This document shows, piece after piece, positions 48,617 through 63,246 of a stretch of DNA of 64,000 nt (positions are counted from its first letter, which is position 1; each line of letters starts with the position of its first letter). Source of the DNA: Candidatus Hadarchaeota archaeon (GTDB lineage Archaea > Hadarchaeota > Hadarchaeia > Hadarchaeales > JAGGTB01); the NCBI GenBank assembly GCA_964384105.1, contig CAYLJV010000001.1, forward strand, positions 288,001 through 352,000. Direction: 5' to 3'. The notes beneath the pieces are model-generated. The model was given only the letters and a program-made list of their open reading frames with translations. It searched no databases and was not told the origin of the DNA. The translations under genes were made by a program, and so were the position numbers.

Positions 48617-48772
48617 GTTAGGTCCTCCAATAAATTGATATTCGGATATCTTTCCCTTGTTTTTAGTTTTTAATATATAATTAATTGTCTGTTTTCTCCG
48701 ACAAAGTTTTGAATAAAGATGAAACATAAATACCTCTTGATTAAACAGAAGTAGGGTAAAAGAAAACGTCGT

Positions 48773-48909
48773 GCTGGGGTGGCGCAGTAGGTAGCGCGCT
48801 CGGCTGTTAGGTTAAGGCATGGATGAAGAGCGAACCTCCATCTTGTAAACTTGACATGCCGGAAAATGCGGCAACCGAGCGGTCGGAGGTTCGAGTCCTC
48901 CCCCCAGCG
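48773..48909 (+). tRNA. tRNA-Asn(GTT) with a 64-nt intron at 37/38 (intron 48810-48873)
   Basis: Acceptor GCTGGGG/CCCCAGC, G73, anticodon stem CTCGG/CCGAG with CT-GTT-A, T arm GGAGG-TTCGAGT-CCTCC. BHB with TAG and CAA bulges around CTGT/GCGG. Confidence 0.93.
48816..48860 (+). ncRNA. Intron-encoded K-turn / box C/D-like RNA (putative)
   Basis: GGCATG/CATGCC stem, 3-nt GAT bulge, tandem GA/AG pairs from a C-like box ATGAAGA (48823-48829) and a D-like box TTGA (48851-48854). Confidence 0.55.
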
Positions 48910-49049
48910 CCTTTCTTTCTTTTTAATGTTTTTCTAGTATCTTGAAACAGCTATTATTAATGCTTTGATTAGCTCAATTACGAGATAATTTTATTTCTAG
49001 TCTTAGTTTGGATCTTTTTTCTCTGAAGTTTCTGTATCTATTTATTATT

Positions 49050-63150: not shown

Positions 63151-63246
63151 GGGCCCGTAGCTTAGTCCGGTTAGAGCGCCCGACCAATAGAAATTGGGGC
63201 GAAGCTCATAACCGGGTGGTCGAGGGTTCGAATCCCTCCGGGCCCA
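63151..63246 (+). tRNA. tRNA-Ile2(CAT) with a 21-nt intron at non-canonical position 30/31 (63183-63203)
   Basis: Acceptor GGGCCCG/CGGGCCC-A typical of archaeal tRNA-Ile. After splicing, the anticodon arm is CCCGG-CTCATAA-CCGGG; T arm GAGGG-TTCGAAT-CCCTC; strict BHB. Confidence 0.88.

What the first reader, a model, noticed from the sequence alone, without database searches (positions are those of the whole stretch)
48810..48873. tRNA-Asn intron looks like a K-turn/box C/D guide RNA antisense to another tRNA's anticodon arm
Seen: inside the BHB, GGCATG (48816-21) pairs with CATGCC (48855-60), followed by a 3-nt GAT bulge and tandem G.A/A.G pairs from ATGAAGA (C-like) and TTGA (D-like), which is K-turn geometry. 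The 21-nt loop GCGAACCTCCATCTTGTAAAC has reverse complement G-TTTACAA-GATGG-AGGT-TCGC. That reads as anticodon loop (UAC), 3' anticodon stem and AGGU variable loop of a tRNA-Val(UAC); with G.U pairs, tRNA-Ala(UGC) also fits. The N+5 rule would point at position 35, one off the wobble U34. Known: the euryarchaeal tRNA-Trp intron is a C/D guide for its own tRNA. Inference: an excised circular intron from tRNA-Asn may act in trans on a different tRNA, which I do not know to be described. Caveats: the target tRNA is not in this window, the boxes are degenerate, and there is no C'/D' pair.
Basis: partly seen in the sequence, partly recalled or inferred. Interest (0 to 1): 0.8.

Follow-up and report, generated by a model that had tools for sequence, protein, structure and literature searches.

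The report
Conserved K-turn intron in tRNA-Asn
The intron of this archaeon's tRNA-Asn gene carries a conserved kink-turn like that of methylation-guide RNAs, but its conserved antisense stretch matches the T arm of tRNA-Asn itself, not another tRNA's anticodon arm.

Summary
The K-turn is real. Window 48773-48909 (+) is tRNA-Asn(GUU) with a 64-nt intron (48810-48873) at position 37/38.

- **Conservation:** the element occurs once per genome in 60 of 66 genomes of the phylum. Relatives' record titles name Hadarchaeota.
- **Covariation:** 7 of 8 stem pairs show compensatory changes.

The proposed target is not supported.

- **D-side stretch:** the 12 nt next to the D-like box pair with tRNA-Val(UAC) or tRNA-Ala(UGC) over only 9 contiguous pairs, 2 of them G.U. 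56% of 1000 shuffles do as well.
- **Not conserved:** that stretch varies even within the genus.

What is invariant is the block right after the C-like box, xCGA(A/G)CCUC. It is complementary to T-arm positions 50-57 of tRNA-Asn itself (9 Watson-Crick pairs here). Only 0.26% of 5000 shuffles reach this against the tRNA's own exons.

The layout mirrors one guide of the tRNA-Trp introns in the same genomes. There, spacer nucleotide 8 pairs with C34 in 22 of 24 sequences. By that register the Asn block would point at A51.

No D' box, no target covariation and no RNA data exist. The function is inferred.

The parts
48773..48809 (+). tRNA-Asn(GUU) 5' exon (positions 1-37; anticodon GUU at 48806-48808)
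   Evidence: Rfam RF00005, 56.3 bits, with a 65-nt insertion after the anticodon. Sequence read. ARAGORN with introns mis-typed it as Ala(ggc) i(35,64).
48810..48873 (+). 64-nt intron at canonical position 37/38
   Evidence: Orthologous introns of 42-64 nt occur in 35 distinct sequences. The covariance model hits once per genome in 60 of 66 genomes.
48804..48807 (+). 5' strand of the 4-bp central helix of the BHB (C32-U35). It pairs with 48868-48871. The splice-site bulges are 48808-48810 and 48872-48874.
   Evidence: Helix 2: 94.3% of cells paired, and 3 of 4 pairs vary on one side only (G-C/G.U, U-A/U.G).
48816..48821 (+). 5' strand of the K-turn canonical (C) stem, GGCAUG
   Evidence: Pairs with 48855-48860. 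Helix 3: 7 of 8 pairs with compensatory changes, 92.2% paired. RNAalifold gives the same stem.
48822..48829 (+). 3-nt bulge GAU (48822-24), overlapping the C-like box AUGAAGA (48823-29). G48825 and A48826 form the tandem G.A pairs.
   Evidence: AUGA(A/U)GA is invariant in 35 of 35 sequences; one relative (L004) has AUGAUGA.
48830..48840 (+). Conserved antisense block GCGAACCUCCA. 48831-48839 are complementary to T-arm positions 57-49. Spacer nucleotide 8 is U48837, opposite A51.
   Evidence: xCGA(A/G)CCUC is invariant in the 50 distinct sequences tallied. 9 Watson-Crick pairs with the tRNA's own exons; 0.26% of 5000 shuffles reach this. Duplex energy is -16.2 kcal/mol.
48841..48850 (+).
   Evidence: No conserved column in alignment columns 44-54. 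The distance from C box to D box is held at 19-22 nt in 46 of 46 K-turn forms.
48851..48854 (+). D-like box UUGA. G48853 and A48854 pair with A48826 and G48825.
   Evidence: GA followed by C is at least 90% conserved. Box variants among 46 sequences: ACGA 36, UCGA 4, UUGA 3, AUGA 2, CGGA 1.
48855..48860 (+). 3' strand of the K-turn C stem, CAUGCC
48874..48909 (+). tRNA-Asn 3' exon (positions 38-73)
48885..48893 (+). Proposed target: T-stem 5' strand and T loop, GGAGGUUCG (positions 49-57; A51 = 48887)
   Evidence: GAGGUUCGA (50-58) is invariant in the 50 distinct orthologues tallied. It is the only tRNA in G000 with a 9-nt Watson-Crick match to the block.

Best explanation
**What it is.** The tRNA-Asn(GUU) intron is an order-wide, single-copy BHB intron. 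It carries the terminal half of a box C/D RNA:
- a C-like box (AUGAAGA) and a D-like box (xxGA) that form a K-turn on a covarying stem, which is presumably an L7Ae site;
- directly 3' of the C-like box, an invariant 8-9-nt antisense element to the T arm (positions 49/50-57) of tRNA-Asn itself.

**How it most likely works.** It probably acts like the known tRNA-Trp intron. As part of the precursor, or after excision, the K-turn would recruit L7Ae (and possibly Nop5-fibrillarin). The block would then base-pair with the T arm of a (pre-)tRNA-Asn molecule.
- Pairing in trans is simplest. Pairing in cis would be a pseudoknot.
- The outcome would be either 2'-O-methylation of A51, the nucleotide opposite spacer nucleotide 8, or a non-catalytic hold on the T arm during maturation.

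**Shown:** the K-turn anatomy, its conservation and covariation, the invariance of the block, and its complementarity.

**Inferred:** protein binding, the pairing itself, methylation, and the site.
For: - **Distribution:** one match per genome in 60 of 66 genomes of the phylum, in all 5 families of the order. BLAST found it in 38 of 41 relatives.
- **K-turn stem:** 7 of 8 pairs have compensatory changes, 95.1% of cells are paired against 26-44% in slid controls, and 0 of 500 shuffles reach the covariation score. RNAalifold agrees.
- **Selection on the block:** AUGA(A/U)GA + xCGA(A/G)CCUC + xA is invariant, while the neighbouring 8-11 nt are unalignable.
- **Pattern of change:** the only change inside the duplex is A to G opposite U54, which keeps a pair.
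- **Complementarity to its own exons:** 9 Watson-Crick pairs. Reached by 0.26% of 5000 shuffles for the 10-mer, 0.14% for the whole loop and 0.5% of 2000 for the whole intron.
- **Specificity:** no other tRNA in G000 exceeds 7 Watson-Crick pairs.
- **Machinery:** fibrillarin and Nop5 (adjacent genes) and L7Ae are encoded.
- **Internal control:** in 24 distinct tRNA-Trp introns of the same group, the 12 nt after the AUGAUGA box pair with the anticodon loop. Spacer nucleotide 8 lies opposite C34 in 22 of 24. The D' guide obeys N+5 for position 39 in 20 of 24. Most have no xxGA at spacer positions 13-16, the same layout as in Asn.
- **Known sites:** positions 34 and 39 are the experimentally known targets in Haloferax (passages read in PMC7994747, PMC4090602 and PMC11408192).
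- **Precedent for the site:** the D guide of Pyrobaculum aerophilum sR64 is predicted to target G51 in the T stem. About 80% of tRNA-targeting sRNAs use one guide only (PMC6009581, passages).
Against: - **No D' box:** there is none at a fixed distance. xxGA sits at spacer positions 13-16 in 6 of 46 sequences, against about 9% expected from composition. There is no C'/D' motif.
- **N+5 rule unmet:** counted from the D-like box, N+5 falls in the variable linker. The classical rule is therefore not met for the conserved block.
- **No covariation with the target:** T-arm positions 50-58 are invariant in all 50 distinct sequences, so pairing cannot be proven. At position 49, G goes with C in 14 of 18, but A goes with A in 32 of 32, never with U.
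- **K-turn can be lost:** one family (f5; genomes G012, G015, G018) keeps the box and the block in a 42-nt intron. It lacks the D-side GA and the stem, so the block can persist without the K-turn.
- **Weaker statistic against all tRNAs:** against all 46 tRNAs the 9-nt match is reached by 6.4% of shuffles.
- **Antisense matches can arise otherwise:** the non-conserved tRNA-Met intron of G000 also has a 9-nt antisense match to its own T loop (0.1% of shuffles). Such matches can therefore arise from how introns originate, without function.
- **Energetics:** nearest-neighbour energies, which do not model the K-turn or proteins, rank an alternative fold of this one sequence below the BHB/K-turn fold. 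Values are -61.2 versus -45.1 kcal/mol for the drawn structure and -51.6 after refolding with it enforced.
- **No data on the RNA or its binding:** no run on record as RNA was listed, and no binding data were found in the papers searched.
Confidence: 0.5

Rival explanations
1. The excised, circular intron acts as a box C/D guide in trans. It would use the 12 nt upstream of the D-like box against the anticodon arm of tRNA-Val(UAC) or tRNA-Ala(UGC), with N+5 at position 35.
For: 9 contiguous pairs (2 G.U) with tRNA-Val(UAC) positions 32-40 and with tRNA-Ala(UGC). These are also among the better RNAduplex hits, at -8.3 and -8.8 kcal/mol. C/D guides against positions 32-39 of tRNAs are known (PMC6009581).
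Against: 56% of 1000 shuffled 12-mers reach 9 pairs with some tRNA. For Watson-Crick pairs only, 45% reach the observed 7, and that hit lies in the tRNA-Trp intron. The stretch is unconserved even among 7 genomes of the genus. There the bases opposite A35 and C36 are changed. Position 35 is not a known ribose-methylation site (recalled).
Confidence: 0.04
2. The K-turn is an L7Ae-binding structural module that helps the long intron fold or present its BHB for splicing. The invariant block is kept for a reason other than pairing with the T arm, such as a protein contact. Its complementarity would then be a relic of the intron's origin from an inverted tRNA fragment.
For: The tRNA-Met intron of G000 also contains an antisense T-arm-like stretch. 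It is absent from at least 13 relatives whose exon halves abut. This shows that such antisense pieces come with young introns. There is no covariation with the target. Family f5 keeps the block without a K-turn. L7Ae binds K-turns in several non-guide RNAs, for example RNase P RNA (PMC5499556, listing and abstract only).
Against: A relic would decay, as the adjacent linker has. Yet 16 nt stay invariant across 5 families. The only substitution inside the duplex preserves pairing (A to G opposite U54). The block sits in the same register relative to the C-type box as the bona fide tRNA-Trp guide.
Confidence: 0.25
3. The block guides modification of, or pairs with, another RNA that contains GAGG(U/C)UCG. 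Candidates are rRNA, RNase P RNA, an mRNA, or the T arms of several tRNAs in trans.
For: With G.U allowed, tRNA-Arg(UCU) gives 9 pairs and several Leu and Pro tRNAs give 8. T-loop sequences are shared by many tRNAs.
Against: No run of 7 or more Watson-Crick pairs in the 23S rRNA or the assembled 16S parts. Other tRNAs would put G.U or a mismatch at spacer nucleotide 8. aTrm56 is present, so an RNA guide for Cm56 is not needed. C56 is also only spacer nucleotide 3.
Confidence: 0.1

Closest known systems
Box C/D guide embedded in the euryarchaeal pre-tRNA-Trp intron (Cm34 and Um39; Haloferax volcanii and others)
   Same: It is an intron at 37/38 of a tRNA gene. It carries a C-type box followed directly by an antisense stretch to its own tRNA. 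It is excised through a BHB. The same genomes carry that Trp intron, with nucleotide 8 after the box opposite C34 in 22 of 24 sequences.
   Different: It is a different tRNA (Asn) and a different target region (T arm, not anticodon arm). It has a stem-closed terminal C/D K-turn, whereas the Trp intron here has an internal D'-loop-C' unit. It has only one conserved guide and no D' box. Reviews of 2014 and 2024 give tRNA-Trp as the only case (passages in PMC4090602 and PMC11408192).
Stand-alone archaeal box C/D sRNAs that target tRNAs (for example Pyrobaculum aerophilum sR64, predicted target G51 in the T stem)
   Same: A K-turn-forming C/D pair. One functional guide, with the other side untargeted. 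A T-stem position-51 target is predicted (PMC6009581).
   Different: Those RNAs have C'/D' motifs and 12-nt spacers, and the target is set by N+5 from a D or D' box. This element has one K-turn, a 19-22-nt loop, and its guide next to box C.
Non-methylating C/D snoRNAs of eukaryotes that act by base-pairing as folding or processing chaperones (U3, U8, U14; recalled, not read here)
   Same: A C/D K-turn RNP with a conserved antisense element that is not placed by the N+5 rule.
   Different: Those are eukaryotic, act on pre-rRNA and are stand-alone or in mRNA introns. No archaeal or tRNA example is known to me.
Ordinary archaeal BHB tRNA introns in lineages with many disrupted tRNA genes
   Same: A canonical BHB at 37/38. 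Relatives carry extra introns in the same gene. [quoted passage not shown]
   Different: Ordinary introns are not conserved in sequence. This one has a 16-nt invariant core and a covarying K-turn stem.

Membership tests
Archaeal BHB tRNA intron (canonical) | Insertion between tRNA positions 37 and 38 | tested here: met
   The Rfam tRNA alignment places the insertion after position 37. Sequence read.
Archaeal BHB tRNA intron (canonical) | Two 3-nt bulges holding the splice sites, separated by a 4-bp helix | tested here: met
   Central helix 48804-07 with 48868-71, and bulges UA|G and CA|A (by inspection). That helix is 94.3% paired in 35 sequences. The inner helix h' is weak in G000 (3 bp).
Box C/D sRNA | Box C (RUGAUGA) and box D (CUGA) forming a K-turn: 3-nt bulge and tandem sheared G.A pairs on a terminal stem (consensus recalled) | tested here: met
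   AUGAAGA matches 6 of 7 positions and UUGA 3 of 4. Both GA dinucleotides are invariant or at least 90% conserved. The stem covaries in 7 of 8 pairs. 46 of 51 distinct sequences have a stem of 4 bp or more next to the GA. The fold itself was not tested.
Box C/D sRNA | Internal C'/D' motif (K-loop) with about 12-nt spacers | tested here: not met
   The loop is 19-22 nt with no second box pair. xxGA at spacer positions 13-16 occurs in 6 of 46 sequences, about the chance level.
Box C/D sRNA | Guide of about 10 nt complementary to a stable RNA, with the target opposite the 5th nucleotide upstream of D or D' | tested here: inconclusive
   D side: chance-level and unconserved, so not met. C side: a conserved 8-9-nt match to the tRNA's own T arm, in the register of the Trp guide (nucleotide 8), but without a D' box.
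Box C/D sRNA | Assembly with L7Ae, Nop5 and fibrillarin, and methyl transfer | not testable with these tools
   The genes are present in G000. No binding or modification data exist.
Any curated Rfam family other than tRNA | Match at or near the gathering score | tested here: not met
   Over 48760-48920, only tRNA passes. The best other hits have E of 1.4 or more.
H/ACA guide RNA (considered because it also holds a K-turn) | Pseudouridylation pocket below the K-turn stem, and an ACA box | tested here: not met
   By inspection, the region below the stem is the BHB, which is short and unconserved. The conserved block lies in the apical loop.

The most novel reading that the evidence does not exclude
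The excised (probably circularised) tRNA-Asn intron is a minimal, single-K-turn C/D RNP without C'/D'. It would methylate the ribose of A51 in the T stem of tRNA-Asn, with its register set from box C rather than from a D' box. That would make it the second intron-borne methylation guide in archaea, the first aimed at a T arm, and a natural 'half-mer' guide.
Probability: 0.22. Interest if true: 0.75.

Novelty: new variant of a known kind. Interest (0 to 1): 0.6.

Why it matters
Reviews still give the tRNA-Trp intron as the only tRNA intron that carries a functional guide unit (passages read). A second one would matter for several reasons:

- It sits in a different tRNA, is conserved through a whole order of uncultured archaea, and is aimed at the T arm.
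- It would give a selective reason for keeping that intron.
- It would offer a natural test of how a single K-turn without C'/D' places its target.
- It would add a T-stem site to archaeal tRNA modification maps.

If the pairing turns out to be non-catalytic, it would be an archaeal counterpart of chaperone-type C/D snoRNAs.

It also shows that the obvious side of such a loop (next to box D) can be the wrong one to read.

Tried and rejected
**Ideas tested and dropped**
- **Guide for Cm56, as in Pyrobaculum (recalled).** Rejected. aTrm56 (PF01994) is present at 170 bits, and C56 pairs with spacer nucleotide 3.
- **Small ORF starting at the AUG of the C-like box.** Rejected by inspection. Downstream sequence varies with indels that are not multiples of three.
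- **H/ACA-type reading.** Rejected; see the membership test.

**Searches that gave little**
- **RNA evidence.** No RNA holder was listed. All 11 runs were DNA.
- **Exact-pattern scan of genome contigs.**
  - Titles were shown for 11 of the 13: 10 named Hadarchaeota, Hadarchaeum, Hadarchaeales or Hadesarchaea, and 1 'uncultured archaeon'.
  - The rest are chance hits. Absence outside this group is therefore not shown.
- **Metagenome scan with a gapped pattern.** Only 1 of 118 loci was tRNA-like.
- **Genomes without a model hit.**
  - Four order genomes (G031, G033, G046, G049) showed no tRNA-Asn gene by BLAST, only chance fragments. G042 was not tested.
  - G041, from another order, has an intronless tRNA-Asn.
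- **Methanopyrus kandleri.** Its tRNA-Asn also has a 37/38 intron (PMC5829648, passages). I had no way to fetch that genome, so it was not compared.
- **Literature.**
  - The searches found no description of a tRNA-Asn intron guide.
  - PMC92551 and PMC275556, the original tRNA-Trp papers, are not held, so their content is cited only through reviews.
  - Supplements, including the tRNA target tables of PMC6009581, were not seen.

Full report
**What is there**

Window 48773-48909 (+) is a tRNA gene (Rfam tRNA, 56.3 bits) with a 65-nt insertion after the anticodon.
- Reading the sequence gives tRNA-Asn, with anticodon GUU at 48806-48808.
- The 5' exon is 48773-48809, the 64-nt intron is 48810-48873 at the canonical 37/38 site, and the 3' exon is 48874-48909.
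- ARAGORN without introns missed the gene. With introns it mis-typed it as Ala.

- GGCAUG (48816-21) and CAUGCC (48855-60);
- the GAU bulge (48822-24);
- AUGAAGA (48823-29) and UUGA (48851-54), with G48825/A48826 opposite A48854/G48853;
- a 21-nt loop (48830-50).

A bulge-helix-bulge can be drawn around the splice sites: helix 48804-07 with 48868-71, and bulges UA|G and CA|A.

The window lies in a 1.62-Mb, 40% G+C assembly of 12 contigs.

**Is the K-turn real?**

From this one sequence, no. A loose scan for stem + RUGAWGA + YYGA finds 46 such hairpins in the genome. The thermodynamic optimum of the precursor is also another fold. It scores -61.2 kcal/mol, against -45.1 for the BHB plus K-turn-stem structure as drawn and -51.6 after refolding with those pairs enforced. 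These energies do not model K-turns or proteins.

Comparison settles it.
- BLAST with the gene found it in 38 of 41 related genomes, with many matches running through the intron.
- I aligned 35 distinct copies of anticodon arm plus intron.
- For the structure I drew (anticodon stem, central BHB helix, K-turn stem), 95.1% of cells form pairs, against 26-44% when the partners are slid by 1-3 columns.
- 10 of 17 pairs show changes on both sides, 7 of 8 in the K-turn stem. 0 of 500 column shuffles reach the covariation score.
- RNAalifold predicts the same stem unaided.
- Invariant or nearly so: the U of the bulge, both GA dinucleotides and the closing G-C pair. One relative has the textbook AUGAUGA.
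- A covariance model built from the alignment hits exactly once per genome in 60 of 66 genomes of the phylum, in all five families of the order.
- The one genome from another order has an intronless tRNA-Asn.
- Four of the five order genomes without a hit show no tRNA-Asn gene at all by BLAST.
- Record titles of matching public contigs name Hadarchaeota, Hadarchaeales or Hadesarchaea.
- No Rfam family other than tRNA matches.

The 12 nt upstream of the D-like box were tested against 46 tRNA genes and the rRNAs of the genome.
- The best hits are indeed tRNA-Val(UAC) and tRNA-Ala(UGC). They reach only 9 contiguous pairs, two of them G.U.
- 56% of 1000 shuffled 12-mers do as well.
- For the whole 21-nt loop with G.U allowed, the best run (11, in the acceptor stem of tRNA-Met) is reached by 24% of 500 shuffles.
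- This stretch is the least conserved part of the loop. Among the seven genomes of the genus it already differs at the bases that would face anticodon positions 35 and 36, and an anticodon cannot covary.

**What is conserved instead**

Directly after the C-like box lies xCGA(A/G)CCUC(C/A)A. It is invariant, apart from the positions written as alternatives, in the 50 distinct sequences tallied. A later parse counted 51. The following 8-11 nt cannot even be aligned.
- The block is the Watson-Crick complement of T-arm positions 50-57 of tRNA-Asn itself. In this genus the match extends to 49-57: 48831-39 against 48885-93, GGAGGUUCG.
- Shuffles that reach the 9-pair match against the tRNA's own exons: 0.26% of 5000 for the 10-mer, 0.14% for the whole loop and 0.5% of 2000 for the whole intron.
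- No other tRNA of the genome has more than 7 Watson-Crick pairs with it. The 23S and assembled 16S rRNA have fewer than 7.
- The duplex is worth -16.2 kcal/mol, against about 8.7 for the T stem it would replace.
- The only substitution inside the duplex is A to G opposite U54, which keeps a pair.

The limits are equally clear.
- The target (positions 50-58) is invariant, so there is no covariation.
- At the duplex edge, G49 goes with C in 14 of 18 sequences, but A49 goes with A in 32 of 32.
- Against all tRNAs, 6.4% of shuffles reach 9 pairs.

**Comparison with the tRNA-Trp intron of the same genomes**

The genome has the classical tRNA-Trp intron. In 24 distinct Trp introns of the group the layout is guide - CUGA - short loop - AUGAUGA - conserved 12 nt - variable tail.
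- The guide upstream of CUGA obeys N+5 for position 39 in 20 of 24.
- The 12 nt after AUGAUGA pair with the anticodon loop, with nucleotide 8 opposite C34, in 22 of 24.
- These are the positions known from Haloferax (reviews, passages read).
- Most of these Trp introns have no xxGA at spacer positions 13-16.

So a C-type box followed by a conserved guide and a variable tail is how an accepted guide looks in this group. The Asn block has the same register, with the duplex running from spacer nucleotide 2 to 9 or 10. Nucleotide 8 is the invariant U48837, opposite A51.

A C/D guide predicted to target position 51 of the T stem exists in Pyrobaculum aerophilum (sR64). Most tRNA-targeting sRNAs there use one guide only (PMC6009581, passages).

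Fibrillarin, Nop5 and L7Ae are encoded. A likely stand-alone C/D sRNA in this genome also uses AUGAAGA as its C box.

**What speaks against a plain methylation guide**

- There is one K-turn only, no C'/D' and no D' box. xxGA at spacer positions 13-16 occurs in 6 of 46 sequences, about the chance level.
- N+5 from the D-like box falls in the variable linker.
- The C-to-D distance is nevertheless held at 19-22 nt, which points to a constraint on geometry.
- In family f5 (G012, G015, G018) the intron is 42 nt. The box and block sit in a plain hairpin loop with no D-side GA. The block can therefore persist without the K-turn.
- Pairing in cis would be a pseudoknot across the K-turn stem and the BHB, so action in trans, as reported for tRNA-Trp, is simpler.
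- The 57-nt tRNA-Met intron of this genome also holds a 9-nt antisense match to its own T loop (0.1% of shuffles). That intron is missing from at least 13 relatives whose exon halves abut. Antisense tRNA pieces can thus come with young introns. The argument for function in Asn rests on conservation, not on the match alone.

**Verdict**

- My best reading (0.5): an intron-borne, C/D-like RNP whose conserved arm pairs with the T arm of tRNA-Asn. About 0.2 of that is 2'-O-methylation of A51. The rest is a non-catalytic hold on the T arm.
- Main rival (0.25): a structural L7Ae module, with the block kept for another reason.
- Reviews of 2014 and 2024 give tRNA-Trp as the sole intron-embedded guide. 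My four literature searches found nothing on a tRNA-Asn intron guide. I therefore rate it a new variant of a known kind.
- No RNA or modification data could be had. Supplements and the two original Trp papers were not available.

Noticed in passing
window 63151-63246 (+): A second tRNA gene (anticodon CAU; Rfam 55.3 bits). It has an insertion of about 21 nt inside the 5' strand of the anticodon stem, which is a non-canonical intron position.
   Followed up: partly
L010, L018, L015, L017, L020, L023, L013, L026, L065, L090, L141 (relatives' tRNA-Asn genes): Many relatives have one to three further insertions in the same tRNA-Asn gene. They lie near position 8/9, in the D arm, and in the T loop after GGUUCGAG. 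This fits the tRNA gene disruption reported for Hadesarchaea (PMC5829648).
   Followed up: partly
G000 C8:35433-35567 (-), outside the window (L195, L391): tRNA-Met(CAU) has a 57-nt intron. It contains a direct repeat UUGAGAA and a 9-nt antisense match to its own T loop and stem (UUCAAAUCC). The intron is missing in at least 13 relatives, three of them in the same genus, so it looks like a recent gain, perhaps built from tRNA-derived pieces.
   Followed up: partly
G000 C1:484876-484947 (+), outside the window (L196): A candidate stand-alone box C/D sRNA in an intergenic gap. It has a 6-bp terminal stem, C box AUGAAGA, an internal CUGA, a C'-like box and D box CUGA. No rRNA or tRNA target was found within 2 mismatches.
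   Followed up: partly
G000 C1:105316-105457 (+) and L198-L227: tRNA-Trp introns of the group keep both guides (positions 39 and 34). Most lack a recognisable D box at 12 nt after the C' box. G000 itself has lost complementarity in the position-39 guide, with a run of only 3.
   Followed up: yes
G041 C69:5522-5660 (L266): In the genome from the other order, tRNA-Arg(UCU) has an intron of about 64 nt that contains GGAUGAAGA. I found no clear K-turn stem and no antisense match to its exons by eye.
   Followed up: no
G000 C9:16055-16757 and C6:69770-70532: The 16S rRNA gene is split over two contig ends. It matches the model in four pieces with short unmatched gaps. The 23S gene (C6:66468-69517) lies next to the 3' part.
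   Followed up: no
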